In this document: one piece after another, positions 7,504-25,418 of the stretch
Layout: each line of letters opens with the position of its first letter
Numbering within the stretch: the first letter of the stretch is position 1
Origin: a virus
Taxonomy: Duplodnaviria > Caudoviricetes
Length of the DNA: 64,000 bases
Direction: 5' to 3' (one strand)
Virus record (IMG/VR): IMGVR_UViG_3300038530_004004
Span: 15,589 to 79,588 of that record
Notes under the pieces: generated by a model
What the model was told of the DNA's origin: nothing
What the model saw: only the letters and a program-made list of their open reading frames with translations
The model's database searches: none
Position numbers and translations under genes: made by a program

Positions 7504-7504
7504 C

Positions 7505-8365: not shown

Positions 8366-9966
8366 TGAAAGTAGCTGGATTGTGCTCGGGCCATGACTGT
8401 GCCTTTGCGATTTTAGAAGATGGAGTTCCAATCCTCCATGCAGAATTAGAAAGATATTTAAGAGTTAAAGAGCCGTTAGGTGATTCTTTAGAATTTTTAT
8501 TTAAAACTTATGATTCATATGATGAAATAACTCATTTCACCCATTGTTTAGATAGCTGGAATGGAGGGATATCAAAAAGATACCCAGAAACTTTTAAGAA
8601 AATGAACGATCTTATTGAAAAAAGCAATGGAGAATATTTTGTCCCCGGCCACCATGAGTGTCATGCTGCAAACGCTTTCTTCTCAAGTAATTTTGAAGAT
8701 GCTTTAATAGTGACTATTGACGGCGGCGGAAGAGATTATGACAAGAATGGTAATGAATTTATTACAACTTTCACTATATGGGAGGGTAAAGGAAATAAAA
8801 TAAAACCAATAGCGATACTACCAGAGGATAAAATTAATTTGGGTGTGATGTGGTCTTTTTGCACAAAAAATATTTTTGGTTTGTCTGATGGATATCCAAA
8901 AGGAAATCAAGCTGGCTCCGTAATGGCCATGGCTGTGATGGGAGATCCGACAGAACACTTTGATTATTTTCACAGTTTTAAAGGTAAATTAAATAATAGA
9001 TTTGATTATAAGAGATTAAGACAATTAGCAGAGACATCAGAGGAACAAAGATTTAATATTGCAGCCGCATTACAAAAAACAACAGAAGTCATGACTAAAG
9101 CTATCATTGATAAGTATATTGATAAAAGTTCTTCTAGAAATTTATGTTTGGCTGGTGGTGTGGTGCTTAATTCTGTTATGTCTGGAAAAATGTTTGATTG
9201 GTATAATGATAGATTTGATGACATTTACATGTGCCCAGTGCCTTATGATGCGGGTTTAGCCATTGGCGCAGCGCAGTGGGTGTGGCATCAAAAATTAGAT
9301 AATCCAAGAATAAAATGGGATGACAATGCAACACCGTATTTAGGTGAGCTTTATAGTGCTGATCAGGTAAAAAAGGACATTGATAGCTATGGTGAGAGGA
9401 TTATAACAAAAACCACAACCGATGATGAAGTTTTAGATCTTTTGGCTAAAGGAAAGATAGTTTCTGTGTTCGGCGGCGGTTCGGAATCAGGAAGGCGTGC
9501 ATTGGGGAATAGAAGTATTCTGGCAGATCCACGTAGTCCAAAAATGAAAGACAAGATTAATGAAAAAGTAAAACATAGACAATGGTACAGGCCATTTGCA
9601 CCAGCTATACTAAAGGAAAGAGTAAAAGACTGGTTTGTTAGAGATATAGACAGTCCTTATATGGGCTTTGTTATAAAATTTAAACAAGAGGCCAAAGATA
9701 AAGTACCAGCCGTTGTGCATTATGATGGAAGCGGAAGACTACAGACAGTCAGCGAAAAAGATAATTATTGGTTCTATAATTTTCTTAAACAGTGGGAAAA
9801 AGTATCAGGCGTCCCAATACTTTTAAATACTAGTTTTAATGATAGAGAGCCAATTGTAGAAACTGCCTCACACGCAGTTAACTGCTTTCTAGGGACTAAA
9901 ATTGATTACTTGTATTTTTATGATGAAAAAATACTAGTTGAAAAAAGTGGTGCTGATAATGCCTAA
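8365..9966 (+). CDS. O-carbamoyltransferase, NodU/CmcH/NovN family
   Basis: GHDCA, ELER, HHECHAANAF, IDGGG, LAGGVVLN, DAGLAIGAA, GRRALGNRSILADPR, KHRQWYRPFAP, HYDGSGRLQTV and LLNTSFN motifs. Confidence 0.95.
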   Translation: MKVAGLCSGHDCAFAILEDGVPILHAELERYLRVKEPLGDSLEFLFKTYDSYDEITHFTHCLDSWNGGISKRYPETFKKMNDLIEKSNGEYFVPGHHECHAANAFFSSNFEDALIVTIDGGGRDYDKNGNEFITTFTIWEGKGNKIKPIAILPEDKINLGVMWSFCTKNIFGLSDGYPKGNQAGSVMAMAVMGDPTEHFDYFHSFKGKLNNRFDYKRLRQLAETSEEQRFNIAAALQKTTEVMTKAIIDKYIDKSSSRNLCLAGGVVLNSVMSGKMFDWYNDRFDDIYMCPVPYDAGLAIGAAQWVWHQKLDNPRIKWDDNATPYLGELYSADQVKKDIDSYGERIITKTTTDDEVLDLLAKGKIVSVFGGGSESGRRALGNRSILADPRSPKMKDKINEKVKHRQWYRPFAPAILKERVKDWFVRDIDSPYMGFVIKFKQEAKDKVPAVVHYDGSGRLQTVSEKDNYWFYNFLKQWEKVSGVPILLNTSFNDREPIVETASHAVNCFLGTKIDYLYFYDEKILVEKSGADNA

Positions 9967-11719
9967 AATATATATTCCAATATGTGATAACAATCTTTGG
10001 GTTTTAAAAATTTATGCCTTTTTGTTTGAAAAATTTTGGGGCAATGAACAACAAGTTGTCATAATGGGGTTTTCAAAACCAGAGTTTTCTCTACCTGATA
10101 ACTTTTCATTTGTTTCTTTGGCAAAAGAGCAAATTGGCGGCGCCAAAAAGTGGACTAGATATATATACAATTATTTGAGCACAGTAGAGGATGAGTATGT
10201 TATTTTCTCTCTAGAAGACTTTTTTCCTACATGTCCACCACGAATGGATCTTGTCAGTGATATTATTGAGTTGATGAAAAAAGATAGCTCAATTGGCCGA
10301 GCAGATCTAACTTGGGACTCGTTTATTAATGTTTTTGATAAAAATAATAAAGTTGTTCACCGAAATCAATATAAACAACTGTGTAAAATTAGAGGAACGA
10401 GTGTTTTAAATCTTCCAAAAGGAGCACCATATAGAATTTCAACACAACCCGCGCTGTGGAAAAAAGAGTATCTTTTAAAATTTCTTGATAATGATTGGTC
10501 CCCATGGGATTTTGAAGTTCTTGGCAGCATGGCTTCTAATTCGATGGATGAAAAGATTATTGCTTGTGCAGATAGCTCTTTTGTAAATTATCCTACAAAG
10601 TGGGTTCACAAAGGTGCTGCATCAAGATATCATGAAGATAAAATAAATGTTTTGGGATTAGATGTAGATACCATAAAAGAGCTAGTCGAAAACAAACTAG
10701 TAAAAGAAGAAAAACTACAGTGGGGTCAATGGAACGGACCCGTTCCAAGTTTTGATGAATTGTGTGGATACGATTTTGATCCTAAAATGATGCCCTATCA
10801 TCCAGCATCACCAACAAACTGGAAAGAATATACACCGACTTATAATTCAACTAAAGAGATTATAAACGTATTTGATAACACATTTTCTCACACAAAAGAT
10901 CTTTGGGGTTATATTACAGCCACTGGTGTTGATATGTGGGGACGCCCTCAAGATGTGTTTTTTGTTGAAAATAAAATGAAGTATGATGGTATTACTTTTT
11001 TTGTAGATCATTTTATATCGAATATTCCGCTAGTTGAAAAAGTAAAAAGCAAATATAAAGTCGCATGGCTTTTAGAACCAAAAGCGCTTAAACCTCAACC
11101 ATATGAGGCTATATTAAATCATCATGACAAGTTTGATTTAGTTATAACTCATGATCAAAACCTAATTGAAAAGTTTGATAATTGTGTCTATATGCAGCAG
11201 GCCGAGTGTCGAGTTGAACCAGAAAGTTGGGGCATACACAACAAGACTAAAAAAACTTCTTTAATTGCTGCTAAAAAGAAAATTCTAGAGGGACACAGGT
11301 TTAGATACGAAGTAGCAGAAAAATTACACGATAAGCATGGTTTTGACCTGTGGGGTGCCGCATTTGATAATAGATTTGAAAACAAAACTGATGCTTTAAA
11401 AGATTATATGTTTTCAATAACAATACACAATACTATAGAAAATAATTTTTTTACCGATGGCATTGTTGACTGTTTTGCTCTAGGCACCATACCTATTTTT
11501 AGAGGCTGTCCGAACATAGGCGATTTTTTTGATAAAAATGGAATTATATCCTTTACAACAATAGAAGAATTAGATATAATATTGAGTGAGCTATCTGAAA
11601 AAGATTATTACGAACGTCTTGAATCAGTTAAAAATAATTATGAAATAGCTAAAAAATTCAAGAAAACAAATGAAGACCAAATAATACACAAAGTAAGGGA
11701 GTTTCTATATCGTGAGTAA
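9959..11719 (+). CDS. Two-domain glycosyltransferase: GT-A-like N-domain plus GT10 (fucosyltransferase)-like C-domain
   Basis: N-domain YVIFSLEDFF...YRISTQPALWKK...WSPWDFE; C-domain KDYMFSITIHNT..NNFFTDGIVDCFALGTIPIFRG, which follows the GT10 alpha-1,3-FucT motif layout. Confidence 0.65.
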   Translation: MPKIYIPICDNNLWVLKIYAFLFEKFWGNEQQVVIMGFSKPEFSLPDNFSFVSLAKEQIGGAKKWTRYIYNYLSTVEDEYVIFSLEDFFPTCPPRMDLVSDIIELMKKDSSIGRADLTWDSFINVFDKNNKVVHRNQYKQLCKIRGTSVLNLPKGAPYRISTQPALWKKEYLLKFLDNDWSPWDFEVLGSMASNSMDEKIIACADSSFVNYPTKWVHKGAASRYHEDKINVLGLDVDTIKELVENKLVKEEKLQWGQWNGPVPSFDELCGYDFDPKMMPYHPASPTNWKEYTPTYNSTKEIINVFDNTFSHTKDLWGYITATGVDMWGRPQDVFFVENKMKYDGITFFVDHFISNIPLVEKVKSKYKVAWLLEPKALKPQPYEAILNHHDKFDLVITHDQNLIEKFDNCVYMQQAECRVEPESWGIHNKTKKTSLIAAKKKILEGHRFRYEVAEKLHDKHGFDLWGAAFDNRFENKTDALKDYMFSITIHNTIENNFFTDGIVDCFALGTIPIFRGCPNIGDFFDKNGIISFTTIEELDIILSELSEKDYYERLESVKNNYEIAKKFKKTNEDQIIHKVREFLYRE

Positions 11720-12473
11720 AAATGATAAAGTGATCATAAGCGTTTTATGTCCAACTCGTGGCCGAACAGCGCTTATGAAAAGAGCGTTAGAGAGTTGCTT
11801 TTCCACATGTGCAAATCCTGCTCAAATTGAGTTTGTCTTTGGGCTAGATGACGATGATTTAGAGTCAATAAAAATGGCTCAAGAGTTAGAGGATCTATAC
11901 CCAGATAAAAACATCTCACACACCATATGGCCAAGAAAAAAGTTTAAGTTTTCAGATTTGATGAACCAGTGTTCTAAAGCCGCTTGTGGTGAGATATTTG
12001 GTTTATTTTCTGATGATGCCATATATAACAGTAAAAACTGGGATGATATAGTAGTTAAATTTTTTAATGAATGTGAGCATAGAGATAAATTATATTTATT
12101 ACAAACATCTGGCGGCGCGAATGCTCAAACTGGTTTCCCCTTTATGCATAAAAATTGGCGGACTGCAGCTGGATATTTACTAGCTCCAATCTTTAATGGT
12201 GATTGGGGGGATTACTGGCTGGCAGACGTTATAAATGGTATTGGACGTGAAAGGTTTGTTTTTCGTAGAGACATTGAAATAAAGCATTTGCATGTTGAAT
12301 GGGGCAAGATGGAAAAAGACCAAACATATTTTGAACATCTTAAAGAAAGAAAAGAACAAGAAAATTTACCTAGAAATCTTCACCCATATCACGGAGATGA
12401 AGGCCAGAGACTAAAAGCACTAGAAATAGAAAATTTGCGTAATTTCATAAAAAATTTTAAAGAGGAGGAATAA
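11712..12473 (+). CDS. GT2-like (GT-A fold) glycosyltransferase
   Basis: ISVLCPTRGR, FGLDDDD and FSDDAIY (DxD-like) motifs, plus HLH near the C-terminus. Confidence 0.7.
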   Translation: MSKNDKVIISVLCPTRGRTALMKRALESCFSTCANPAQIEFVFGLDDDDLESIKMAQELEDLYPDKNISHTIWPRKKFKFSDLMNQCSKAACGEIFGLFSDDAIYNSKNWDDIVVKFFNECEHRDKLYLLQTSGGANAQTGFPFMHKNWRTAAGYLLAPIFNGDWGDYWLADVINGIGRERFVFRRDIEIKHLHVEWGKMEKDQTYFEHLKERKEQENLPRNLHPYHGDEGQRLKALEIENLRNFIKNFKEEE

Positions 12474-12889
12474 TGAGTACAAGAAAATATCTTCCTACTC
12501 TATCTGAATTAGTTGACAGGCTTTCAATAGCTCAATTAAAAGAGGTTTTTATACCTGATCATAAAGATGAATATGCTGAAGAAATATCACAAATTCTTCA
12601 CGATATTAACTTAATATTACAAGAAAAAAGTGCTATAGTGGATAGTGATGTTATCAGGGCAATCGTAGTGTTGTCTCAAATGAATCTTCACATTTGGCAT
12701 AATGAATCAAACTATAGAAAAGGCATAAAAGACGGTAATAATCTAGAGCTTACTCATGGTTTGAACGGCATCAGAAACACTGCAAAAAACAAAATCCAAG
12801 AGATTGTAGGTGGTAGAAAAGACTACAAAATAGATTGCTTGGCATCTGAATTTAAAGATTGGGAAATAAGTTGGAGTAAAAATGAGTAA
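12473..12889 (+). CDS. Uncharacterised helical protein (DUF6165/DUF4254-like), paralog of 17752-18162
   Basis: LSELVDRLSIAQLKE...MNLHIWHNE...NGIRN; clear similarity to 17752-18162. The DUF resemblance is from memory. Confidence 0.6.
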   Translation: MSTRKYLPTLSELVDRLSIAQLKEVFIPDHKDEYAEEISQILHDINLILQEKSAIVDSDVIRAIVVLSQMNLHIWHNESNYRKGIKDGNNLELTHGLNGIRNTAKNKIQEIVGGRKDYKIDCLASEFKDWEISWSKNE

Positions 12890-13841
12890 AAAGAATGTTT
12901 TAATTTGTGGCGCTACAGGGTTCATGGGTAGAAATATTAGTGAGCATTTTTTAAATTTAGAAAATTATAATGTTTTCATGACTGGGTTGAAAAGAGACGT
13001 AGAGCATCCAAACTTTAAAAAAGTTGACTTGACTAATAAGCAGCAAATTAATAAACTTTTTTCTGAAAATAAGTTTGAAGTTGTAATACAGGCCGCTGCC
13101 AACACATCAGGCTCCAAGGATATCATCTCCAAGCCATACTTGCATGTTACCGATAACGCAGTTATGAATGCGCTCTTGTTGCAGGCGTGCTATGATTACA
13201 ATGTAGAGCACTTTTTGTTCTTAAGCTGTGGAGTTATGTATAACCCAGATAGATCACCAGTTACTGAAGAAGATTTTTATCTAGATGAGGGAATATTCCA
13301 TAGATATTTTGGCGTTGGCTGGACTAAAGTTTACGTAGAAAAATTGTGTAAATTTTATTCAACCCTTGGCAAAACAAAACATACTGTCATCAGACACAGC
13401 AACACCTATGGCCCTCACGATAAATATGATTTAGAAAAATCTCACATGTTTGGAGCCACAATAACAAAAGTTATGTCCGCAAAAGAAAATGACGTTATTG
13501 AGGTATGGGGTGACGGGCTAACAGAGAGAGATCTACTATATGTGGATGACGTAGTTGATTTTATTCAAAAAGCTATTGAAAGGCAAGAAACAGACTATGA
13601 GCTTTATAATGTAGGATATGGCGAATCTATATCCGTTAAAGATATAGTGCAGAAAATTATTGATGCATCAGGTAAAAACCTTACCATAGAGTATGATTTG
13701 TCAAAGCCTAGCATTAATACAAAGCTAGCTTTAATTTCCGATAAAGCAAAAAAAGAATTAGGCTGGGAAAGAAAAATAACAATTGAAGAAGGAATAGCAA
13801 AAACCATTGATTGGTACAAGTCAAATTGCGAGGATGTATAA
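12882..13841 (+). CDS. Extended SDR, GDP-L-fucose synthase (Fcl/WcaG)-like epimerase/reductase, atypical active site
   Basis: GATGFMG, QAAANTSG, YGPHD, VWGDG..RDLLYVDD and YNVGYG motifs; the YxxxK position reads VGWTK. Confidence 0.8.
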   Translation: MSKKNVLICGATGFMGRNISEHFLNLENYNVFMTGLKRDVEHPNFKKVDLTNKQQINKLFSENKFEVVIQAAANTSGSKDIISKPYLHVTDNAVMNALLLQACYDYNVEHFLFLSCGVMYNPDRSPVTEEDFYLDEGIFHRYFGVGWTKVYVEKLCKFYSTLGKTKHTVIRHSNTYGPHDKYDLEKSHMFGATITKVMSAKENDVIEVWGDGLTERDLLYVDDVVDFIQKAIERQETDYELYNVGYGESISVKDIVQKIIDASGKNLTIEYDLSKPSINTKLALISDKAKKELGWERKITIEEGIAKTIDWYKSNCEDV

Positions 13842-14482
13842 TGAACATTTTTATACCGGAAAAGTTTAGAAACAAACAAGTTAAAGATGTTACTCTTACA
13901 GAACAAGATCTACTTGATTTTGAGATTAGGGTAAAAGATGAATATGAAAAAGCCACAATTAGTGGCCCGGTTCATTTGTCAAAAGGCAATGAAAAACAAT
14001 TAATTGAGGTTTTTAAATATATTGATCCTGAAGACTGGGTTTTTTCTTCGTGGAGAAATCACTATCACGCTCTTTTACATGGAGTTCCAGAGGAACACCT
14101 TTGGAATCTGATTGTCGCAGGTAAAAGCATGAGCGTTTTCAGTGAGGATCCAAAACTTTATACATCGTCAATTGTAGGTGGTGTGTTACCAATTGCACTT
14201 GGTGCATCAATAGCACTAAAATCAAAAGGATCTGATAAGAAAGCTTGGGTTTTTGTAGGAGATATGACAGCTGAAACCGGTGTTTTTCATGAGGTTTATA
14301 AATACTCTAGACGACATAATCTACCTCTAGAATTTGTTGTGGAAGACAACGATATGAGCACAAATACCCCAACTAGTGAGACATGGAATAATATAAAAAC
14401 TGATTTCCCAAAAGACGTTTTTTATTATTTTTACGAACGAGGATATCCCCACCACGGCACCGGCCAATGGATTTTATTTTAA
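13841..14482 (+). CDS. ThDP-dependent enzyme, E1-alpha-like subunit (short, ~213 aa)
   Basis: GPVHLSKGNE, SSWRNHYHAL, SSIVGG and the ThDP motif GDMTAETGVFHE...EDN. Confidence 0.85.
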   Translation: MNIFIPEKFRNKQVKDVTLTEQDLLDFEIRVKDEYEKATISGPVHLSKGNEKQLIEVFKYIDPEDWVFSSWRNHYHALLHGVPEEHLWNLIVAGKSMSVFSEDPKLYTSSIVGGVLPIALGASIALKSKGSDKKAWVFVGDMTAETGVFHEVYKYSRRHNLPLEFVVEDNDMSTNTPTSETWNNIKTDFPKDVFYYFYERGYPHHGTGQWILF

Positions 14483-14499
14483 AATAAAAAGGAGAATAA

Positions 14500-15033
14500 A
14501 TGAAGTATGTTGATCATCTAGTCAAATCAATGGAATATTTGGCAGAAAATCCAAAAACTGTTTTTATTGGCCAATCAGTGGCTTATAGTGGAAACTCTAT
14601 TTATAATACTTTAAAAACAATACCAAAAGATAGAAAAATTGAAACTCCTGTTTTTGAAGAAACTCAAATGGGATTATCAATAGGTTTAGCAATGGAAGGC
14701 TACATTCCAGTTACTTGCTATCCAAGGTTTGATTTTTTGTTATTAGCTGTAAATCAATTGGTTAACCACCTAGATAAAATGGAAGAAATGACATGGGGAA
14801 CTTTTAAGCCAAGAATAATTATACGAACTGCAATTGGCGCCAAAACCCCTCTAGATGGTGGATTACAGCACACTCAAGACCACACAGAGGCATTTAGACA
14901 TTTACTAACAAATGTTGATGTTGTTTTATTAGAAAATAAAGAAGATATATTTGCAGCTTACGAAAAAGCCTTAAACAGAGAAGATAGCAAATCAACTTTA
15001 ATGGTTGAGGTTGGAGAATATTATAATCTATGA
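14500..15033 (+). CDS. ThDP-dependent enzyme, E1-beta-like pyrimidine-binding subunit (no C-terminal domain)
   Basis: FIGQSV, PVFEETQMGLSIGLAMEG, NQLVNH and GLQHTQD motifs; only 177 aa. Confidence 0.82.
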   Translation: MKYVDHLVKSMEYLAENPKTVFIGQSVAYSGNSIYNTLKTIPKDRKIETPVFEETQMGLSIGLAMEGYIPVTCYPRFDFLLLAVNQLVNHLDKMEEMTWGTFKPRIIIRTAIGAKTPLDGGLQHTQDHTEAFRHLLTNVDVVLLENKEDIFAAYEKALNREDSKSTLMVEVGEYYNL

Positions 15034-15845
15034 AACTAGATTTAAAAGACATCAAAACCAGGGTCAACCAACATAGAAAAAAAATAATAAAAATTATTAA
15101 TAAAGCTGGTAAAGGTCACGTTGGAGGGGCCTTTTCTTGTTTAGATTTGTTGGGTGTCCTGTATTATGGTGGTTTTTTAAATATTTCTGCTGAAAACTAT
15201 AAGAAACTTAACAGGAATAGGTTTATTTTAAGCAAAGGACACGCTAGTATTGCACAATATGTAGTTCTGCAAGATTTAGGTTTCTTTGAAGAACAAGAAT
15301 TGTTTAATATGAATAATGGTGGTATTCTTGGCGAACACCCAGATAATAATATTCCAGGTATTGAATTTATTTCTGGATCTCTAGGTCATGGACTAGCTGT
15401 GTCTGTTGGTTTTGCATTGAACGCTAAATTGAGTGGCCTCCCTTACATTAGTTATGTTATTTTAGGTGATGGTGAATGTCACGAAGGTTCAGTTTGGGAG
15501 GCTGCAAGTTTAGCTTCACACTTAAATTTATCAAATTTAGTTGCAATAGTAGATAGAAATAAGTTGTGTATACATGGTTCAACTGAAACCATAAACTCTT
15601 TAGAGCCTTTGGGTAAAAGATTTGAAGCGTTTGGGTGGAATGTTGTTGAGATTGATGGCCACAATTATCAAGAAATATTCGATGCCTTAAGTCAAAGACA
15701 CTCTGTAAAGCCAACAATGATTATCGCGAACACAATTAAAGGCAAAGGAGTCAGCTTCATGGAAAATAAAAGCGAGTGGCATCATGGAGCAATAACCGAT
15801 GATATTTTGAAACTAGCAATCGAGGAGTTATCACAAAATGATTGA
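15030..15845 (+). CDS. Transketolase-like, N-terminal ThDP-binding subunit
   Basis: GHVGGAFS, RFILSKGHAS, HPD, GSLGHGL, GDGECHEGSVWEA...N and TIKGKGVSFME motifs. Confidence 0.93.
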   Translation: MKLDLKDIKTRVNQHRKKIIKIINKAGKGHVGGAFSCLDLLGVLYYGGFLNISAENYKKLNRNRFILSKGHASIAQYVVLQDLGFFEEQELFNMNNGGILGEHPDNNIPGIEFISGSLGHGLAVSVGFALNAKLSGLPYISYVILGDGECHEGSVWEAASLASHLNLSNLVAIVDRNKLCIHGSTETINSLEPLGKRFEAFGWNVVEIDGHNYQEIFDALSQRHSVKPTMIIANTIKGKGVSFMENKSEWHHGAITDDILKLAIEELSQND

Positions 15846-16770
15846 CATGCGCGATGCCTTTTTTAATCGGTTGTACGATTATGTTTCTAAAGATAAAAAT
15901 GTTTTAGTGCTTACTGCTGATCATGGCGCCTTTGGTTTAAAGAAAATAGAAAAAGATTTTCCAGAGCAATATCTAAATGTTGGAATCGCAGAGCAAACTT
16001 TAATAAGTTTAGCTGCCGGTCTTGCAAGTTGCGGAAAAAAAGTTTATGTCTATGCAATTAATAACTTTGTGTCATTAAGAGTTTTGGAACAAGTAAATGT
16101 TGATATATGCGCGATGAATCTAGACGTTAACATAATAGGTGTCGGCGCAGGATTTACATATAGCACTGACGGGCCAACGCACCACGGAGTGCAAGATGTA
16201 GCAGCTATGATAAATTTGCCTAGATTACATGTTTATAATGCAACTGATGATATTAATACTAAAAAGTTAGTTGATTTGTCGTATCTAAACAAACATCCAA
16301 AATATTTTAGAATTGAAAAAGGTCTTTTACCGAGATTGTATTCAGAAGAAGACGATATAAATCTAGGGGTCAAACAACTAGAGACAACGACCAGTGATAC
16401 AATTGTCTTCTCTTCCGGTTTTATGACGCACACGACACAAAACGTTATAAACACAATCAAACAAAACGGGATCGATGTTTCTCATTGTGATCTTTTTTGC
16501 CTAAATCCACTTCCTGAACAAAACATTCTAAATTTGTGTGAAAACAAACGTGTTATTGTAGTAGAGGAAAACATTAAAAGTGGAGGTATAGGGCAAAAAC
16601 TATTTTCGTTGTTGAAAGAAAATGGTCACAAAAAAGATGTATTGAACATATCACTAGATAATGATTTTTATTTTAGCTTTGGAGATCGCAATCTACTTCA
16701 TAAAGTAACACACCTAGATGAATCCTCGATAAATCAAAAAATTACAGATTTTATTAAAAAGGCGGTTTAA
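15838..16770 (+). CDS. Transketolase-like, C-terminal subunit
   Basis: MRDAF, LTAD, NVGIAEQ, DGPTHH and VVEEN...GGIG motifs. Confidence 0.93.
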   Translation: MIDMRDAFFNRLYDYVSKDKNVLVLTADHGAFGLKKIEKDFPEQYLNVGIAEQTLISLAAGLASCGKKVYVYAINNFVSLRVLEQVNVDICAMNLDVNIIGVGAGFTYSTDGPTHHGVQDVAAMINLPRLHVYNATDDINTKKLVDLSYLNKHPKYFRIEKGLLPRLYSEEDDINLGVKQLETTTSDTIVFSSGFMTHTTQNVINTIKQNGIDVSHCDLFCLNPLPEQNILNLCENKRVIVVEENIKSGGIGQKLFSLLKENGHKKDVLNISLDNDFYFSFGDRNLLHKVTHLDESSINQKITDFIKKAV

Positions 16771-16771
16771 A

Positions 16772-17749
16772 ATGTATGATGGCAAAAACGTTCTAGTTGC
16801 TGGCGGCACCGGAACTATTGGTATACCTTTAGTAAAAATGTTGTTGGAAAGAAATGCAAATGTGTCTGTTGTTTCTCTAGACTCTGAAGAGTATGCAAAA
16901 AAAGTTTTTAACAATGAAGTGCCCTTTGAAAGACAGGATCTTACAGACATGAATAACTGTCTTAAGGTGACAAAAAATCAAGACTATGTATTCAATTTGA
17001 TTGGTATAAAAGGATCAGTAGGTATTGGTGAAACAAAAGTGGCTAGCTATTTTGTTCCGATGTTAAGATACCAAACTAATCTCATGGATGCAGCTTTTAA
17101 ATCGGATGTTGATAAATTCATGTTTGTTAGTAGTGTTTGTATATATCCACAAGCTTCAGAGCACTTTGAAGATAATGCATGGAATGGTATGCCAAAACAA
17201 AATGATCGCATACCTGGATTAGCTAAACGTATAGGAGAAATACAAGGTGAGACATACTTGAAAGAATATGGTTGGGATGCGGTAAAGATTTTAAGGCCAA
17301 GCAATGTATATGGACCATTTGATGATTTAAACCCTAAAACAGCTCAAGTTATTCCCTCTCTTATATCCAGAGTTCTGCATGGAGAAAATCCACTAAAAGT
17401 ATGGGGAGATGGATCTGCAATAAGAGATTTTATTTATTCTAAAGAAGTTGCTTATTGGCTTTTAGAAGCTTTAGAAAAAGCTCCACCCTGTGTTCCTATA
17501 AATCTAGGGTCAGGTAATGGCTATAGCATTAAAGAAGTAGCAGAAACTATCTGTAATACCCAAAAGAATCCAATAAAAATCGAGTGGGATGTGACAAAAC
17601 CGTCTGGTGATCCAATAAGAATCATGAACATGGATAGAGCCAAGAAACTTTTGAATTTTGAAAGAAAATATTCTTTAGAAGATGGCATAAGTGAAACAAT
17701 TGAATGGATAAAAAACAATAAAGAATTAGCAACATTAAAAGGATTTTAA
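16772..17749 (+). CDS. Extended SDR, Fcl-like epimerase/reductase, atypical active site
   Basis: GGTGTIG, SSVCIYP, NVYGPFD, VWGDGSAIRDFIY and INLGSG motifs; the YxxxK position reads PGLAK. Confidence 0.82.
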   Translation: MYDGKNVLVAGGTGTIGIPLVKMLLERNANVSVVSLDSEEYAKKVFNNEVPFERQDLTDMNNCLKVTKNQDYVFNLIGIKGSVGIGETKVASYFVPMLRYQTNLMDAAFKSDVDKFMFVSSVCIYPQASEHFEDNAWNGMPKQNDRIPGLAKRIGEIQGETYLKEYGWDAVKILRPSNVYGPFDDLNPKTAQVIPSLISRVLHGENPLKVWGDGSAIRDFIYSKEVAYWLLEALEKAPPCVPINLGSGNGYSIKEVAETICNTQKNPIKIEWDVTKPSGDPIRIMNMDRAKKLLNFERKYSLEDGISETIEWIKNNKELATLKGF

Positions 17750-17751
17750 TT

Positions 17752-18162
17752 ATGACTGATAGACAATTTGTACTTCCGGCCGCGGAGCTGATAGATAGAT
17801 TATCTGTAGACCAGATAAAAGAGATGCTTTTTGATAACAACACCAGTATAACTCAAGAGATATCTAAACTGTCTCATGATATCGATTTAATTTTATCTGA
17901 AAATAATGTTAAACTAAATGCAAGGTTTATAAGAATAATCATGGTTCTCTCTCAAATCAATGTTCATATTTGGTATTTGAAAGACGAAATGCAAAAAAAT
18001 GAAGAGAAATACAATGATTTATTAAAGCTAGCGCATCAAATTAATGGTGTGAGAAATAGAATGAAAAATCTTTTATTAGAAGAGTTCGGTGATAAAGAAA
18101 AAAGTTTATTAAGAAGCAACCTAGAAACTGATGGATTAAAAGGGTGGGAACCGAGTATCTAA
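17752..18162 (+). CDS. Uncharacterised helical protein (DUF6165/DUF4254-like), paralog of 12473-12889
   Basis: AAELIDRLSVDQIKE...INVHIWYLKD...NGVRN. Confidence 0.6.
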   Translation: MTDRQFVLPAAELIDRLSVDQIKEMLFDNNTSITQEISKLSHDIDLILSENNVKLNARFIRIIMVLSQINVHIWYLKDEMQKNEEKYNDLLKLAHQINGVRNRMKNLLLEEFGDKEKSLLRSNLETDGLKGWEPSI

Positions 18163-19260
18163 ATGAATTTTCTAAAAAATAATTTTTTTGAAAAAAACGT
18201 TTCACAAATTGCATTAGGAGTTAATAAAACTGGTAACAAAAATTCCACCGATTCAGAATGTTTTGAAAAGCAAAGAATTTATTTTTATCACAAAGCAATG
18301 TCCTTGGGTGTTAACTTTTTTGATACCGCAGAATTATATGGCGGCGGATACTCTGAAGAAGTTTTAGGACTAGCTCTGAAAAACAAAAGACAGCAAAATG
18401 TAATCTGCACCAAGTTTAATGCCAGAAACTCTGATAGTAAAAGCTTGAGATTGTCTTTAGAAAACAGTTTGAGAAGATTAAAGACTGATTATATAGATAT
18501 ATACTTGGCTCATTGGGTTAGCCCCTATACTCCTTTAGAAGACCTAATTGATTCGTTAAATAAATTTACCAATGAAGGAAAAATATTAAGTTATGGTATA
18601 GGTAACGCTACCGAAACTGAAATTAAAGATTTTTATTTTAAAAACAAGTGCAAACCATTTATAATTGAGAATGAATACAACTTGTTAGAACAAGACGCAG
18701 AAAAAGAAATCATACCTTTTTGCAAAGAAAATGATTGCTTATTCATGTCATATAGTCCCTTTTTACAGGGCACCAAAGTTGAATTTAACAAAGATATAAT
18801 CGCCATTAAAAACAAATACAGCTGCACAACAAATCAGTTAATGTTAGCTTGGGTCGCTAAACAAAATGTCATATCTGTGGTTAGAACACTAAACCTGCAA
18901 CATTTACAAGAAAATATTGATGCGCTAAAAATTGATTTAACAAACTTTGAACTTGACACGATTAGTAATTGCTTTCGTATAAAGACTAGTGACATTGATA
19001 TTGATGATGTTGATATCGAAAATGAAAATTGTGACTATTTTTCTTGCGAAGACGCAATACAAAACAAGTTGGATTTAATACCAAGCCCAGAGCTTTTGTC
19101 CACTAGGGTTGAAAAAGGTTTTGATTTGCCACCCTTAAGGACTAGATACAGGAATGGAAAGTATCAAATTTTAAAAGATTTTTATTTTTCAGAAATTAAA
19201 AAATATTGGGCCTGGAAACTAACAAACAAAAAAACTATAAAGGTGTATGTTTTTCCATGA
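18163..19260 (+). CDS. Aldo/keto reductase with degenerate C-terminal ParB/Srx-like extension
   Basis: AKR tetrad motifs FDTAELYG, ICTK and YLAHW, plus SLRRLKTDYID; extra ~90-aa tail paralogous to that of the next gene. Confidence 0.85.
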   Translation: MNFLKNNFFEKNVSQIALGVNKTGNKNSTDSECFEKQRIYFYHKAMSLGVNFFDTAELYGGGYSEEVLGLALKNKRQQNVICTKFNARNSDSKSLRLSLENSLRRLKTDYIDIYLAHWVSPYTPLEDLIDSLNKFTNEGKILSYGIGNATETEIKDFYFKNKCKPFIIENEYNLLEQDAEKEIIPFCKENDCLFMSYSPFLQGTKVEFNKDIIAIKNKYSCTTNQLMLAWVAKQNVISVVRTLNLQHLQENIDALKIDLTNFELDTISNCFRIKTSDIDIDDVDIENENCDYFSCEDAIQNKLDLIPSPELLSTRVEKGFDLPPLRTRYRNGKYQILKDFYFSEIKKYWAWKLTNKKTIKVYVFP

Positions 19261-20360
19261 AATATAGTAAATTAGGAAATAGTGAAGATTTAATTTCTGT
19301 TATAGGTTTTGGCACTGGCTTTCATCTTCCTGAAAACGAAAGTGGAACCAGTATAGAACAAACTATAAAAGCGTCTTTAGATAATGGAGTCAATTTTGTT
19401 GACACGGCCCCAGTGTACGGAGATGGAGCATCCGAGAAATTATTGGGTGAAACGTTGTCAAAGATAGGTAGAAAAAATGTTTTTTTGGCGAGTAAGGTAT
19501 CTCCAAAAGATGTGACACATGACGGCGTTATAAAATCTTGTGAAGCTAGTTTAAGTAGATTGCAAACAGATGTGATTGACTTATTACAGGTACACTGGTC
19601 AAATCCAAATATTCCTTTGAGTGAAACACTATCTGGAATGGAAAAACTAGTGAGTGACGGTAAAGTAAGACACATAGGTGTGAGCAACTTTACATTTAAT
19701 GAAGTCGAGCAAACAATATCAAACTTAAAGAACAGTACATTGTCATCAATTCAAACAGAATATAATTTATTTGAGAGATCAATAGAAGAAAAACTATTGC
19801 CTTATTGTGTTGATAATGATATAACTTTAATAGCTTATAGCCCTTTAGCTCAAGGTAAATTGGCAAACGGTAAAAATCAAGTCGATCTGTTACATAAAAT
19901 ATCTAAAAAATATAATTGCACTCCTGGTCAAGTTGTGTTAAACTGGTTAACTGCGCAATCAAGAGTTGTTGTTATTCCTAACACATCTAAAGAAAAACGT
20001 GCAATTGAAAATGCAAAGTCAACAAACTTTAATTTATCACCGGAAGATCTTAAGTTAATTGACGAAAACTTAAAAACCCCAGTGAGCTATGTTGATGTTA
20101 ATGAAATTAAAGTTTCTAATGATTACAACAGAAAAGTTTATACGACTGTTCAAGAAGCTTTAGATAATAAAATGAACTTGACCCCTTCTCCTGTTCAGTT
20201 AGCAGAAGAGATGAAAAAAGGGTTTTTCTTGAAACCAATAAGACTAAAACAAATACAAGATAATAGATACGATTTAATAGAAGGTAGATTAAGATATTGG
20301 GCATGGGTGATAGCGTTTGGTAATAGCAAAAAAATACCAGCGTTGGTTTGGAAGAAATAA
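19257..20360 (+). CDS. Aldo/keto reductase with C-terminal ParB/Srx-like domain
   Basis: VDTAPVYG, LASK, LQVHW, GVSNF, YSPLAQG motifs; tail LAEEMKKGFFLKPIRL...YDLIEGRLRYWA. Confidence 0.88.
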   Translation: MKYSKLGNSEDLISVIGFGTGFHLPENESGTSIEQTIKASLDNGVNFVDTAPVYGDGASEKLLGETLSKIGRKNVFLASKVSPKDVTHDGVIKSCEASLSRLQTDVIDLLQVHWSNPNIPLSETLSGMEKLVSDGKVRHIGVSNFTFNEVEQTISNLKNSTLSSIQTEYNLFERSIEEKLLPYCVDNDITLIAYSPLAQGKLANGKNQVDLLHKISKKYNCTPGQVVLNWLTAQSRVVVIPNTSKEKRAIENAKSTNFNLSPEDLKLIDENLKTPVSYVDVNEIKVSNDYNRKVYTTVQEALDNKMNLTPSPVQLAEEMKKGFFLKPIRLKQIQDNRYDLIEGRLRYWAWVIAFGNSKKIPALVWKK

Positions 20361-20372: not shown

Positions 20373-21131
20373 ATGGCTGACAACAACACAAAAATTTTAA
20401 CATATGACAATGAATCAGAAAAAAGTGCAAGAGACGAAATGTATAACCTGCTTAAAAAGTGTCCTATTCCAGAAGAGCAAGTTCTGTCAAATTTGGGACT
20501 ATTTTTAAATTCTAAAAACCTCTCCAGAATATTGTTCATGAATTACATATATCAAAAACAAATTGATGTGCATGGTGTATTAATGGAGTTTGGCACTAGA
20601 TGGGGCCAAAATGTAGCTTTGTTTGCTGCTCTGCGCGGGATGTATGAGCCATTTAATAGACATAAAAAGCTGATAGCTTTTGATACATTTGAAGGCTTTC
20701 CAGAAATTACCGAAGAGGACGGTACTTCATCAATGATGGTTAAAGGAGAACTGGCATTGACAACTGATTATGATAAGTATCTATCTGAAGTTGTTCAGAA
20801 TATTGAAAATGATAATCCTCTATCTCACATTAAAAAGTTTGAACTCGTAAAAGGTGATGCTACAAAAACAATACACACGTATTTGAAAGACAATCCTGAA
20901 ACGATTGTTTCTTTAGCTTATTTCGATTTTGATTTGTATAAACCTACTAAAGAGTGTTTAGAGGCTATTAAGCCTAGACTAACAAAAGGCAGTGTAGTTG
21001 CTTTTGATGAATTGAATGATCCTGACTCACCGGGAGAAACTTTAGCTTTGATGGAAGTTTTTGGTTTGCAGAATGTAAAACTAAAGCGCTTTCCTTATGC
21101 TTCCCGCGTTTCATATTTCATAGTGGAGTAA
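20373..21131 (+). CDS. TylF/MycF/NovP-family sugar O-methyltransferase
   Basis: MEFGTRWG, FDTFEGFP, LVKGD, YFDFDLYKPT and VVAFDE motifs. Confidence 0.82.
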   Translation: MADNNTKILTYDNESEKSARDEMYNLLKKCPIPEEQVLSNLGLFLNSKNLSRILFMNYIYQKQIDVHGVLMEFGTRWGQNVALFAALRGMYEPFNRHKKLIAFDTFEGFPEITEEDGTSSMMVKGELALTTDYDKYLSEVVQNIENDNPLSHIKKFELVKGDATKTIHTYLKDNPETIVSLAYFDFDLYKPTKECLEAIKPRLTKGSVVAFDELNDPDSPGETLALMEVFGLQNVKLKRFPYASRVSYFIVE

Positions 21132-21134
21132 AAA

Positions 21135-22124
21135 ATGAAAAATATTTTAGATAATTCGAAAGTGTTGGTTACTGGTGGCACCGGAATGATTGGCCGCTAT
21201 TTGGTTGATAAACTGTTGGCAAAAAAATGCCAAGTGACAGTTGTATCTTTGGACGATCCTGGTGATTTACCGTCTGAAGTAAAGTTTATGAAATTAGACT
21301 TAACTGTTTTAGAAAACTGTATGAAAGCGTGCGAAGGCCAAGATTACGTTTTTAATCTTATTGGAATCAAAGGCTCTCCAAAAATGTCTCGTGAAAAACC
21401 AGCGAGTTTTATGGTACCCATGCTTATGTTTAATACCGCCATGATGGAAGCAGCAATGCGATGCAATGTCAAATGGTATCTCTATACTAGTTCTGTCGGT
21501 GTATATCATCCTGCAGAGGTGTTTAAAGAAGACGATGTTTGGAAAACTTTCCCATCGGATAATGACAAGCACCCTGGCTGGGCGAAAAGAATCGGTGAAC
21601 TTCAAGCTGATGCGTATAAAATTCAATACGGAAGAGATAATATTTCTATAGTAAGACCAGCAAATGTATACGGTAAGTGGGATAACTTTGACCCGGAGAA
21701 CGCAATGGTTGTTCCATCTTTGATAAACAGAATTGTTTCGGGTGAATCTCCGCTAGTCTGTTGGGGCGACGGCACGCCAATTAGAGATTTTATTTATGCT
21801 GGTGATTGCGCTGAAGGCATGATACACATGGTTGAAAATGGTGTAACAGACCCAGTTAATTTAGGCAGCGGTGATGGCGTCTCCATTAAAGAGGTTGCAG
21901 AAACAATCCGTGATTGTTTTAATAAAGAAGTTGGTATTGAATGGGATGTAACAAAGCCAAAAGGTGATGCAAGAAGGTTAATGGATACCACACGAGCAGA
22001 AAGTCATGGATTTAAATGTTCTACTTCCATTAAAGATGGCGTTAGGGAAACGTTGGAGTGGTTCTTACAAAATCGTGACTTATACAAAACAAGAAACAAC
22101 TATTTTAAAGGAAATGAAAGTTGA
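21135..22124 (+). CDS. Extended SDR, Fcl-like epimerase/reductase, atypical active site; close paralog of 16772-17749
   Basis: GGTGMIG, TSSVGVY, NVYGKWD, WGDGTPIRDFIY and EWDVTKP motifs; the YxxxK position reads PGWAK. Confidence 0.82.
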   Translation: MKNILDNSKVLVTGGTGMIGRYLVDKLLAKKCQVTVVSLDDPGDLPSEVKFMKLDLTVLENCMKACEGQDYVFNLIGIKGSPKMSREKPASFMVPMLMFNTAMMEAAMRCNVKWYLYTSSVGVYHPAEVFKEDDVWKTFPSDNDKHPGWAKRIGELQADAYKIQYGRDNISIVRPANVYGKWDNFDPENAMVVPSLINRIVSGESPLVCWGDGTPIRDFIYAGDCAEGMIHMVENGVTDPVNLGSGDGVSIKEVAETIRDCFNKEVGIEWDVTKPKGDARRLMDTTRAESHGFKCSTSIKDGVRETLEWFLQNRDLYKTRNNYFKGNES

Positions 22125-25081: not shown

Positions 25082-25418
25082 ATTTGTTTCAAAAGGCTGG
25101 GGCTTTGAAAAATGGATTGTTAATAAGCCAGAGTATTGTGGAAAACTACTGTTTTTTAAAAATGGAAAAAGGTGCTCATGGCACTATCACAAAATAAAAG
25201 ATGAAGTATTTTATTTACAATCAGGCAAACTAATGGTTTATTATTCAGACGACGATGAAATAAACAACGCAAAACAGAAAATTTTGTTGCCTGGGGATAA
25301 TTTTCACGTTTATGTTGGCTTAAGACACCAGATGGTAGCGCTTGAAGATTCCGAATTATTTGAGTTTTCAACACAACATTTTGATGAGGATAGTTATAGA
25401 ATTTTAAAAGGAGACTAA
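25059..25418 (+). CDS. Cupin, sugar(-phosphate) isomerase-like
   Basis: KGWGFEKWIVN..YCGK, CSWHYHKIKDE and HQMVA cupin metal-binding motifs. Confidence 0.75.
   Translation: MSNSLEIKFVSKGWGFEKWIVNKPEYCGKLLFFKNGKRCSWHYHKIKDEVFYLQSGKLMVYYSDDDEINNAKQKILLPGDNFHVYVGLRHQMVALEDSELFEFSTQHFDEDSYRILKGD

What the first reader, a model, noticed from the sequence alone, without database searches (positions are those of the whole stretch)
12473..18162. Mirror-ordered cassette: DUF - SDR - ThDP pair - ThDP pair - SDR - DUF
Seen: 12473 DUF-like, 12882 SDR, 13841/14500 E1-alpha/beta-like pair, 15030/15838 split transketolase, 16772 SDR, 17752 DUF-like. Each ThDP pair is flanked outward by its own SDR and its own small helical protein. 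No lipoyl E2/E3 genes are present in the window, so this is unlikely to be a pyruvate dehydrogenase. Inference: two parallel or sequential three-component carboligase modules (ThDP enzyme + atypical SDR + helical adaptor). One would transfer a pyruvate-derived C2 unit and the other a ketol unit, as in long branched sugars (yersiniose/erwiniose/caryophyllose type).
Basis: partly seen in the sequence, partly recalled or inferred. Interest (0 to 1): 0.78.

Follow-up and report, generated by a model that had tools for sequence, protein, structure and literature searches.

The report
Phage heptose-tailoring cassette with thiamine enzymes
An uncultured ocean phage carries eight tightly packed genes, two thiamine-dependent enzyme pairs, two unusual reductase-like proteins and two copies of an unknown small helical protein. 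They are a rearranged copy of one sugar-tailoring pathway shared by bacteria of about eleven phyla, not two separate mirrored machines.

Summary
Eight co-directional, overlapping genes at 12473-18162 encode small helical protein, Fcl-like SDR, E1 alpha/beta-like pair, split transketolase-like pair, SDR and small helical protein. The two helical proteins are paralogues (37% identity), as are the SDRs (28%).

The window is a marine myovirus contig. The cassette lies in a ~22 kb nucleotide-heptose tailoring and glycosyltransferase operon.

The reading as two parallel three-component modules is only partly supported. In 25 bacterial or archaeal loci from about 11 phyla the same genes form one pathway with two ThDP pairs but a single helical protein. 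There, SDR1 sits at the far end, away from the E1 pair. The mirror order occurs only in this phage lineage (three contigs).

One module idea does survive:
- SDR2 is followed directly by the helical protein in 22 of 24 cases and is fused to it in five proteins.
- The helical protein also occurs as a tandem pair fused to a methyltransferase-like protein.
- That methyltransferase-like protein is itself fused to the transketolase C-subunit.

Most likely the ThDP pairs add two-carbon units to a keto-heptose nucleotide. No product is known.

This scan has met the ThDP/heptose cassette before on other DNA. The fusion network around the helical protein did not turn up in three look-ups of the scan's earlier notes.

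The parts
12473..12889 (+). DUF1: small four-helix protein (138 aa) of an unnamed family, paralogue of DUF2
   Evidence: It has no Pfam, NCBIfam or PDB match. It is 37% identical to DUF2. It is 68-84% identical (tblastn/BLASTP) to stand-alone genes of marine Flavobacteriales and Marinimicrobia.
12882..13841 (+). SDR1: Fcl-like extended SDR without the catalytic Tyr (VGWTK in place of YxxxK)
13841..14482 (+). Minimal E1-alpha-like ThDP (PP-domain) subunit, 213 aa
   Evidence: E1_dh profile positions 6-171 of 300 are matched. The GDM...EDN ThDP motif is kept. About 120 aa are missing compared with bacterial orthologues.
14500..15033 (+). Minimal E1-beta-like PYR-domain subunit, 177 aa, without the C-terminal domain
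   Evidence: Only Transket_pyr is matched. The cofactor Glu (FEETQ) and the GGLQHTQ His are kept. Bacterial orthologues are 347-372 aa.
15030..15845 (+). Split transketolase-like N subunit
   Evidence: Transketolase_N, E 1.7e-44. The best solved match is the split-chain transketolase 6YAK at 223 bits.
15838..16770 (+). Split transketolase-like C subunit (PYR plus C domain) of a divergent subfamily
   Evidence: The family signature is GxGxG in place of the His461 region and R-x-D/E-K in place of R...R520.
16772..17749 (+). SDR2: Fcl-like SDR without the catalytic Tyr (PGLAK), partner of DUF2
   Evidence: It occurs fused to the helical protein in L005, L007 and P0123-P0125.
17752..18162 (+). DUF2: small four-helix protein (136 aa), probable accessory or scaffold subunit
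   Evidence: AlphaFold2 gives a four-helix bundle with pLDDT 81. The family has 520 representatives. Fusions link it to SDR2 and to the methyltransferase-like F1.
18163..20360 (+). Two tandem aldo/keto reductases with ~95-aa C-terminal tails, part of the same conserved pathway
20373..23636 (+). TylF-like methyltransferase, SDR3 (Tyr-less), RmlC-like epimerase and Gmd/DmhA-like 4,6-dehydratase
   Evidence: These genes are syntenic in the cellular clusters.
23640..25418 (+). Heptose activation: HldE-domain-I-like kinase, HldE-domain-II-like nucleotidyltransferase fused to a HAD phosphatase, and a cupin
3386..12473 (+). Transfer and extra tailoring genes: two GT4, an unknown, a GT2, a Polysacc_synt_2 SDR, a carbamoyltransferase, a GT10-like and a GT2-like protein

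Best explanation
The eight genes are the core of one nucleotide-heptose tailoring pathway that a marine myovirus lineage took from bacteria and rearranged. They are not two autonomous mirrored modules.

Shown:
- The same gene families recur in about 25 cellular loci, next to a GDP-heptose synthesis set. The usual order is 4,6-dehydratase, E1ab (or a second TK pair), TKab, optionally a methyltransferase-like F1 and a B12-radical-SAM enzyme, SDR2, the helical protein, AKR, AKR, O-methyltransferase, SDR3, RmlC and a third SDR.
- The phage keeps this order, but SDR1 and the dehydratase have changed ends.
- The phage has added a second helical protein from another clade. It has lost F1 and the radical-SAM gene. 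It carries E1 subunits trimmed to bare PP and PYR domains.

Inferred:
- The kinase, the nucleotidyltransferase-phosphatase fusion and the cupin make an NDP-heptose.
- The Gmd-like dehydratase makes the 4-keto-6-deoxy intermediate, and RmlC epimerises it.
- The E1-like pair decarboxylates pyruvate or a related 2-oxo acid and adds the acyl-anion equivalent to a sugar carbonyl. The transketolase-like pair transfers a second two-carbon ketol unit.
- The AKRs and the Tyr-less SDRs reduce or otherwise process the new carbonyls. The methyltransferase caps a hydroxyl, and the upstream glycosyltransferases transfer the product.
- The helical protein is probably a dimerising accessory or scaffold subunit. 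It would tie SDR2, and in bacteria F1 and through F1 the transketolase, into one assembly.
For: Context:
- Phage genes flank the operon on both sides: PhoH and a PD-(D/E)XK nuclease upstream, a baseplate wedge protein, a RuvC-like resolvase and a primase downstream.
- Two other phage contigs keep the same order, and both carry the baseplate wedge gene elsewhere on the same contig (about 10 kb from the locus in L004).

One pathway:
- Synteny tables for L005-L029 and L064-L066 show the shared order.
- GDP-heptose genes (SIS isomerase, GHMP kinase, HAD phosphatase, NTP_transferase) sit in the same clusters.
- The phage carries HldE-like activation genes instead.

ThDP enzymes look functional and specialised:
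- The ThDP motifs, the cofactor Glu and the beta-subunit His are kept.
- The trimmed E1 lengths are conserved among the phage contigs at 79-87% identity.
- The TK C-subunit lacks two phosphate-binding positions in every family member.
- Marine heptose-activation clusters that lack the tailoring genes also lack the TK pair.

Fusion network:
- SDR2 fused to the helical protein.
- Tandem helical pair fused to F1, found inside the same cluster type.
- TK C-subunit fused to F1.

Chemical precedent: E1 alpha/beta-like proteins (AviB1/AviB2, Pau11/Pau12) are implicated in adding pyruvate-derived two-carbon branches to 4-keto sugars, and the branch keto group is then reduced (PMC4425429).
Against: - No product, substrate or activity is known for any member, so all the chemistry is inferred from family membership and synteny.
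- All three SDRs lack the catalytic Tyr, so their role as reductases is uncertain.
- The AlphaFold2 model of a natural SDR2-helical fusion has pTM of only 0.69 and a disordered linker. It therefore gives no confident interface.
- The helical protein matches no known fold or family.
- Its DUF1 clade lives outside sugar clusters. A role tied purely to SDR and ThDP enzymes cannot cover the whole family.
- The phage route looks like ADP-beta-heptose while the cellular clusters use GDP-alpha-heptose. This is unexplained.
Confidence: 0.55

Rival explanations
1. Two parallel or sequential three-component carboligase modules exist, E1ab+SDR1+DUF1 and TKab+SDR2+DUF2. Each ThDP pair works with its own SDR and its own helical adaptor.
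For: The literal gene order in the window and in two related phage contigs fits this. DUF1/SDR1 overlap by 8 nt and SDR2/DUF2 are 2 nt apart. SDR-helical coupling is real for SDR2/DUF2. In marine clusters DUF1-type genes also follow an SDR.
Against: Cellular clusters with two ThDP pairs carry one helical protein (two adjacent copies in L027), and their third SDR is far from the E1 pair. Loci in which a second TK pair replaces the E1 pair still keep the third SDR (L008, L011, L015). DUF1's nearest relatives are stand-alone genes in genomes that have no close SDR1. In L066 the E1 pair sits directly before SDR2 and the helical protein. SDR2 and the helical protein are therefore not specific to the TK pair.
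Confidence: 0.13
2. The ThDP enzymes act before nucleotide activation. They would lengthen or reshape sugar phosphates, for example transferring a ketol to heptose-7-phosphate to give a nonulose phosphate. That product would then be isomerised, phosphorylated and activated, much as the lincosamide octose is built.
For: Transketolases normally use phosphorylated sugars. The TK C-subunit keeps the Arg358 equivalent and has Lys at the Arg520 position. An isomerase-like cupin, a kinase, a phosphatase and a nucleotidyltransferase lie in the same operon.
Against: The His461 equivalent is lost in every family member. The TK and E1 pairs sit beside the 4,6-dehydratase and the late tailoring genes, not beside the activation genes. 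The TK C-subunit is fused to a methyltransferase-like tailoring protein. Activation-only clusters lack the TK pair.
Confidence: 0.15
3. The genes serve precursor supply only. The split transketolase would be an ordinary pentose-phosphate enzyme that boosts sedoheptulose-7-phosphate for heptose synthesis. The E1-like pair would be a decaying remnant.
For: Marine phages are known to carry carbon-metabolism and LPS-related auxiliary genes such as rfaE (PMC7029224). The TK N-subunit is well conserved, at 223 bits to a genuine split transketolase.
Against: The family-wide active-site changes in the TK C-subunit argue against an ordinary enzyme, as does its obligate synteny with tailoring genes across about 11 phyla. 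The trimmed E1 subunits keep their catalytic motifs and are 79-87% identical among phage contigs, more conserved than the TK pair. A second TK pair can replace the E1 pair in the same slot.
Confidence: 0.07

Closest known systems
E1 alpha/beta-type sugar-branching enzymes of actinomycete antibiotic pathways (AviB1/AviB2 of avilamycin, Pau11/Pau12 of paulomycin)
   Same: These are two-subunit PDH-E1-like ThDP enzymes without E2 or E3, placed inside a deoxysugar pathway. [quoted passage not shown]
   Different: The sugar here is a heptose nucleotide in a glycan-type operon, not a hexose or pentose of an antibiotic. The phage subunits are trimmed to 213 and 177 aa. A second, transketolase-type ThDP pair always accompanies the E1-like pair. 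Sequence similarity to AviB1/AviB2 was not tested.
YerE/YerF and ErwE/ErwF (yersiniose and erwiniose branching)
   Same: A ThDP-dependent addition of an acyl-anion equivalent to an NDP-4-keto-deoxysugar is followed by NAD(P)H-dependent reduction of the side chain (PMC9306805).
   Different: YerE and ErwE are single-chain, acetolactate-synthase-like enzymes acting on CDP-3,6-dideoxy-4-ketoglucose. In that scheme long branches come from one long 2-oxo acid donor, not from two successive C2 transfers. None of the eight cassette proteins has that architecture.
Split-chain transketolase (Carboxydothermus hydrogenoformans, PDB 6YAK/6YAJ)
   Same: The subunit split is the same, with a PP domain in one chain and PYR plus C domains in the other. 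It is the best solved match, at 223 and 100 bits.
   Different: The C-subunit family here lacks the His461 equivalent and has Lys for Arg520. It is confined to heptose-tailoring clusters and is often fused to a methyltransferase-like domain.
GDP-6-deoxy-heptose pathways of Campylobacter jejuni capsules and GDP-L-fucose synthase
   Same: The SDR domain of a bacterial SDR2 orthologue (68% identical to the window's SDR2) matches solved structures titled GDP-L-fucose synthase and C. jejuni GDP-6-deoxy-4-keto-heptose 4-reductase (8EWU, 7CXT). The operon also has a Gmd-type 4,6-dehydratase and an RmlC-type epimerase. That C. jejuni combines these three enzyme types in one pathway is recalled knowledge.
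   Different: All three SDRs here replace the catalytic Tyr with Pro or Val. The pathway adds two ThDP enzymes, two AKRs and the helical protein. The phage activation genes are of the ADP-heptose type.
LPS or glycan gene clusters in the host-recognition region of marine T4-like phages (pelagimyophages, cyanomyophages)
   Same: Sugar-synthesis genes including rfaE, together with glycosyltransferases, sit next to the tail-fibre module (PMC7029224).
   Different: That paper's AMG section, as retrieved with four search terms, names rfaE, UDP-glucose 6-dehydrogenase and glycosyltransferases; no passage on ThDP enzymes, SDRs or a helical protein was returned. Among GenBank phage records the helical protein has no tblastn match and the TK C-subunit matches at 39% identity or less.

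Membership tests
2-oxoacid (pyruvate) dehydrogenase complex E1 | Full-length E1-alpha and an E1-beta with the C-terminal domain that docks on E2 | tested here: not met
   The phage E1-alpha is 213 aa and E1-beta 177 aa with a PYR domain only. Bacterial orthologues are 316-335 and 347-372 aa.
2-oxoacid (pyruvate) dehydrogenase complex E1 | Partner E2 (lipoyl acyltransferase) and E3 | tested here: not met
   PF00198 and PF00364 give no match in the whole 79.6 kb contig, while the control genomes are positive. The contig is a fragment, so this shows absence from the cluster, not from the genome.
2-oxoacid (pyruvate) dehydrogenase complex E1 | ThDP-binding GDG...NN motif, cofactor-activating Glu and beta-subunit His | tested here: met
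   GDM-x27-EDN in the alpha subunit, and FEETQ and GGLQHTQ in the beta subunit.
E1-type sugar C2-branching enzymes (AviB1/AviB2, Pau11/Pau12) | E1 alpha/beta pair without E2 or E3, embedded in an NDP-deoxysugar pathway next to a 4,6-dehydratase | tested here: met
E1-type sugar C2-branching enzymes (AviB1/AviB2, Pau11/Pau12) | Transfer of a pyruvate-derived C2 unit to a 4-keto sugar | not testable with these tools
   This needs an enzyme assay.
E1-type sugar C2-branching enzymes (AviB1/AviB2, Pau11/Pau12) | Closer sequence kinship to AviB1/AviB2 than to metabolic E1s | not tested
YerE/ErwE acyl-branching ThDP enzymes | Single-chain TPP_enzyme_N/M/C (acetolactate-synthase-like) architecture | tested here: not met
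   Pfam finds E1_dh, Transket_pyr and Transketolase_N/C. The only TPP_enzyme_C hit is weak and partial, at 19 bits, below the cut-off.
Canonical (pentose-phosphate) transketolase | ThDP motif, cofactor Glu and the Asp469/His473 equivalents | tested here: met
   GIAEQ and DGPTHH are conserved in all 28 cluster sequences.
Canonical (pentose-phosphate) transketolase | Phosphate-binding Ser385, His461 and Arg520 equivalents | tested here: not met
   The His461 position is Gly, Ala or Pro, and Arg520 is Lys or Gly in every cluster sequence. Ser385 is absent in the window protein. These were read by eye from HMMER alignments to 6YAJ and human TK plus a family alignment. NCBIfam transketolase scores are 265 and 136 bits against a cut-off of 488.
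GDP-L-fucose synthase / heptose C4-reductase (extended SDR) | Rossmann GxxGxxG and the extended-SDR fold | tested here: met
   GGTGTIG is present. Foldseek matches a bacterial SDR2 orthologue model (68% identical to the window protein) to GFS, GME and 8EWU with TM up to 0.85 over the SDR domain.
GDP-L-fucose synthase / heptose C4-reductase (extended SDR) | Ser-Tyr-Lys catalytic triad (YxxxK) | tested here: not met
   Tyr136 of E. coli GFS aligns with Pro in SDR2. SDR1, SDR2 and SDR3 read VGWTK, PGLAK and PGWAK family-wide. As an alignment control, SDRs from marine DUF1 clusters keep YGWAK and YSLAK in the same alignment.
GDP-L-fucose synthase / heptose C4-reductase (extended SDR) | Score above the NCBIfam equivalog cut-off | tested here: not met
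   Scores are 144, 138 and 161 bits against a cut-off of 500.
Named Pfam families for the small helical protein (DUF7783, DUF4254, DUF6165) | Score above the gathering threshold | tested here: not met
   DUF7783 reaches 17 bits against 27, for DUF1 only. DUF4254 and DUF6165 give no hit on the contig at E<=10. One tandem relative gives DUF4254 at 20.7 bits, below the cut-off. The protein-atlas lead scored only 0.87-0.91. A remote relationship stays open.

The most novel reading that the evidence does not exclude
The Tyr-less Fcl-like SDRs may not be reductases. They could be nucleotide-sugar-holding subunits, and the small helical protein could be a dimerising hub that docks them onto the ThDP enzymes, in bacteria through the methyltransferase-like F1. 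Transketolase- and E1-type enzymes have no nucleotide-sugar site of their own. On this reading they would gain one in trans, giving a multi-enzyme carbon-carbon bond-forming assembly for nucleotide sugars. The phage's second helical protein would then form a heterodimer with the first, in place of the tandem-repeat form seen in bacteria.
Probability: 0.15. Interest if true: 0.85.

Novelty: new variant of a known kind. Interest (0 to 1): 0.6.

Why it matters
ThDP-dependent carbon branching of sugars is documented for only a handful of antibiotic sugars and a few LPS sugars. Here two ThDP enzyme types of the transketolase superfamily sit in a heptose pathway that spans about eleven phyla and has been captured by large marine phages, yet it has no known product.

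If the inference holds, an undescribed class of carbon-extended or carbon-branched heptoses decorates many uncultured microbes and something made during phage infection.

The fusion network around the helical protein gives concrete, testable protein-protein pairs. It also suggests a first role for a family of about 500 sequence clusters. The trimmed 213 + 177 aa E1 is a naturally minimal ThDP carboligase scaffold and may interest biocatalysis.

Tried and rejected
- Helical protein as the missing heptose-bisphosphate phosphatase. Rejected: the phage nucleotidyltransferase is already fused to a HAD phosphatase, and bacterial clusters with a full GmhA/HddA/GmhB/HddC set still carry the helical protein.
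- Helical protein as a MazG-like all-alpha NTP pyrophosphatase. No support from Pfam, a PDB profile search or two fold searches. The fold hits were generic helical hairpins covering only residues 55-116.
- DUF4254 and DUF6165 leads from the protein atlas. The HMMs do not hit the contig.
- Mirror order as an inverted or tandem duplication of a module. Rejected: all genes are co-directional, and each paralogue is closer to a different bacterial clade than to its partner. DUF1 is 84% identical to Flavobacteriales proteins and DUF2 63% to Planctomycetota proteins, against 37% to each other.
- Close relatives among GenBank phages. None were found by blastn or by tblastn with the helical protein. 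The TK C-subunit gives only matches at 39% identity or less.
- Literature searches for this cluster under several wordings found nothing specific.
- AlphaFold2 on a natural SDR2-helical fusion. Both domains are confident, but pTM is 0.69 and no coordinates or PAE are returned, so nothing can be said about an interface.
Neighbourhoods came from the search for related loci instead.

Full report
**1. What is there**

Spacing is operon-like, with overlaps of 8, 1, 4 and 8 nt and gaps of 17, 1 and 2 nt.

Pfam and NCBIfam give the following:
- Two Epimerase-type extended SDRs. The best model is GDP-fucose synthase, far below its cut-off.
- An E1_dh fragment and a lone Transket_pyr domain.
- A Transketolase_N protein.
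- A Transket_pyr + Transketolase_C protein.
- No family for the two small proteins.

The small proteins are paralogues (37% identity, E 9e-27), and so are the SDRs (28%, E 2e-30). E1-alpha most likely starts at the ATG at 13841 (213 aa), as its relatives do.

**2. Context**

The window is part of a 79.6 kb IMG/VR virus record. The following phage genes flank a one-strand sugar operon at about 3386-25418:
- PhoH-PIN and a PD-(D/E)XK nuclease.
- A baseplate wedge protein.
- ORFs of 1837 and 3263 aa.
- A RuvC-like resolvase and a primase.

The operon holds, in order:
- Five glycosyltransferase-like genes, a CapD-like SDR and a carbamoyltransferase.
- The cassette.
- Two AKRs, a TylF-like methyltransferase and a third Fcl-like SDR.
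- An RmlC-like epimerase and a Gmd-like 4,6-dehydratase.
- An HldE-domain-I-like kinase, an HldE-domain-II-like nucleotidyltransferase fused to a HAD phosphatase, and a cupin.

A simple hydropathy scan finds no convincing membrane protein in the operon; three isolated 19-residue windows pass the cut-off. Among GenBank phages the cassette DNA and the helical protein have no match, and the TK C-subunit matches only at 39% identity or less. The nearest structural relatives are a Microcystis phage and Flavobacterium phages at about 30% identity.

**3. Comparative genomics**

The DUF2 protein has 263 relatives in the 90%-clustered collection and 520 representatives in the 50%-clustered library.

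A scan of species-representative genomes returned 59 loci. tblastn and all-against-all labelling show that DUF2-type genes sit in one conserved cluster. By record title the carriers are Planctomycetota, Desulfobacterota, Chloroflexota, Bacillota (Heliobacterium mobile), Verrucomicrobiota, Pseudomonadota, Acidobacteriota, Bacteroidota, Patescibacteria, Actinomycetota and a Woesearchaeota bin.

The cluster order is:
- 4,6-dehydratase.
- E1ab, or a second TK pair in the same slot.
- TKab, optionally followed by F1 (methyltransferase-like, often fused to TKC) and a B12-radical-SAM enzyme.
- SDR2 and the helical protein.
- AKR, AKR, O-methyltransferase, SDR3, RmlC and a third SDR.
- GDP-heptose genes: GHMP kinase, SIS isomerase, NTP_transferase and HAD phosphatase.

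Each cluster has two ThDP pairs and three SDRs but one helical protein; L027 has two adjacent copies. The third SDR is not next to the E1 pair.

The phage order is the same string with SDR1 and the dehydratase at swapped ends and with DUF1 added. The palindromic order is found only in the window and in two related phage contigs (L003, L004). Both of those contigs also carry the baseplate wedge gene.

**4. DUF1 is a different clade**

DUF1 is 68-84% identical to proteins of marine Flavobacteriales and Marinimicrobia. In those genomes the gene stands alone in conserved housekeeping surroundings, for example beside infC and a YqeY-like gene. Those genomes have no close SDR1, with the best match at or below 31% identity.

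In a few marine loci (bins labelled Proteobacteria, Alphaproteobacteria, Bacteriovoracaceae, Thaumarchaeota and a Prochlorococcus single-cell genome) the DUF1-type gene lies in or beside a heptose-type gene set, flanked in various combinations by ordinary Tyr-containing SDRs and the kinase, nucleotidyltransferase and cupin genes. The family is therefore not bound to ThDP enzymes. The phage probably picked up DUF1 separately, possibly from a Flavobacteriales-like host.

**5. The module idea that survives**

SDR2 directly precedes the helical gene in 22 of 24 separately called cases. In L005, L007 and P0123-P0125 the two are one polypeptide of 468-483 aa, with the SDR at the N-terminus and the helical domain at the C-terminus.

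The exhaustive profile search also found two further forms:
- Tandem helical-helical proteins of about 290-307 aa.
- At least nine representatives of about 610 aa in which a tandem pair is fused to F1. P0127 residues 305-615 are 42% identical to F1.

These fusions lie in the same cluster type, immediately after SDR2 (L064-L066). F1 is in turn fused to the transketolase C-subunit in L005, L008, L011, L012 and L017. In L011, residues 330-636 are 47% identical to F1.

The fusions therefore connect TK, F1, the helical protein and SDR2. That pattern is what one expects of proteins that work in contact. The tandem forms suggest that the helical bundle acts as a dimer. The phage lacks F1 and the radical-SAM gene.

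**6. The enzymes**

*E1-like pair.* The phage subunits keep the ThDP motif (GDM...EDN), the cofactor Glu and the beta-subunit His. They lack about 120 aa of the alpha subunit and the whole C-terminal domain of the beta subunit. The trimmed forms are 79-87% identical among the phage contigs, so they are under selection. No E2 or lipoyl domain is on the contig.

*Transketolase-like pair.* The N-subunit is close to a genuine split transketolase (223 bits). All 28 cluster C-subunits keep the cofactor Glu and DGPTHH. All lack the His461 equivalent, and all have Lys or Gly at the Arg520 position. This was read by eye from the alignments.

*SDRs.* All three SDR families replace the catalytic Tyr, reading VGWTK, PGLAK and PGWAK, while they keep GxxGxxG, Ser and Lys. 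SDRs of the marine DUF1 clusters keep YxxxK in the same alignment, which serves as an alignment control.

*Helical protein.* AlphaFold2 predicts a four-helix bundle with pLDDT 81. It has many invariant polar residues. It has no fold or family match.

**7. Mechanism**

The best-supported reading is one pathway. In this reading an NDP-heptose is made and then 4,6-dehydrated and epimerised. The E1-like pair adds an acyl-anion equivalent derived from a 2-oxo acid. The TK-like pair adds a ketol unit. AKRs and SDRs then process the carbonyls, a methyltransferase caps a hydroxyl, and the glycosyltransferases transfer the product.

All of these steps are inferred. What is shown is limited to the gene families, the conserved synteny, the active-site features and the fusions.

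Two precedents bear on the chemistry:
- E1-like AviB1/AviB2 and Pau11/Pau12 are proposed to add a two-carbon branch to 4-keto sugars (PMC4425429).
- Erwiniose- and caryophyllose-type sugars are attributed to single-chain YerE-like enzymes that use long 2-oxo acids (PMC9306805). That is a different family from the one here.

They are weighed in their own sections.

**8. Novelty**

Marine myophages are known to carry LPS-type genes, including rfaE, beside tail-fibre genes (PMC7029224). Earlier notes of this scan describe the ThDP/heptose cassette, the minimal E1 and the Tyr-less SDRs on other DNA. These are AI notes, used only as leads. The Tyr loss and the E1 trimming were re-tested here.

Three look-ups of those notes returned none that discusses the small helical family.

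Noticed in passing
window 13841-15033: The phage E1-like pair is a naturally minimal ThDP enzyme of 213 + 177 aa, made of PP and PYR domains only. Bacterial orthologues in the same cluster are 316-335 and 347-372 aa. The trimmed lengths are conserved in two other phage contigs, and short forms 62-69% identical also appear in metagenome loci L068 and L076.
   Followed up: partly
window 12882-13841, 16772-17749, 21135-22124: All three Fcl-like SDRs, and their bacterial orthologues, replace the catalytic Tyr of YxxxK with Val or Pro while keeping GxxGxxG, Ser and Lys. SDRs from unrelated marine clusters keep the Tyr in the same alignment.
   Followed up: yes
window 12473-12889; loci L031-L061: DUF1 is 68-84% identical to a stand-alone gene of small-genome marine Flavobacteriales (beside infC in two of the loci, and beside YqeY and TPR genes) and of Marinimicrobia. 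This is unusually high conservation across phyla for a 134-aa protein of unknown function. It may hint at the phage's host group.
   Followed up: partly
window 23640-25418: The phage activation genes are of the ADP-beta-heptose type: an HldE-domain-I-like kinase, an HldE-domain-II-like nucleotidyltransferase fused to a BcbF-like HAD phosphatase, and a cupin where GmhA would be expected. The homologous cellular clusters use the GDP-alpha-heptose set. The tailoring enzymes are nevertheless 45-69% identical.
   Followed up: partly
window 18163-20360: The two tandem AKRs carry paralogous C-terminal tails of about 95 aa that lie outside the Aldo_ket_red domain. Both tails contain a YWAW motif. Bacterial orthologues are also 371-400 aa.
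   Followed up: no
window 3386-25418: A simple hydropathy scan finds no convincing membrane-spanning protein and the family searches find no Wzx, Wzy, ABC transporter or initiating transferase in the 22 kb operon. The acceptor may therefore be a soluble or virion component rather than a lipid-linked glycan. The operon lies just upstream of the baseplate and giant-ORF (probable tail-fibre) genes.
   Followed up: partly
L003, L004 compared with the window: Cassette proteins are 66-87% identical among the three phage contigs, while the baseplate wedge protein is only 40-41% identical. The sugar island is either exchanged between divergent phages or much more constrained than the structural genes.
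   Followed up: no
window 8365-11719: A carbamoyltransferase (533 aa) and a 593-aa protein with a C-terminal GT10 (fucosyltransferase-like) domain lie directly upstream of the cassette. A carbamoyltransferase homologue replaces SDR2 before the helical gene in locus L018.
   Followed up: no
loci L008, L011, L015, L018, L065: In some Desulfobacterota-type clusters a second, distinct split transketolase-like pair occupies the slot of the E1 alpha/beta pair. Its signatures are ADFGSPALD, YDVTGPTHH and RLDGK.
   Followed up: partly
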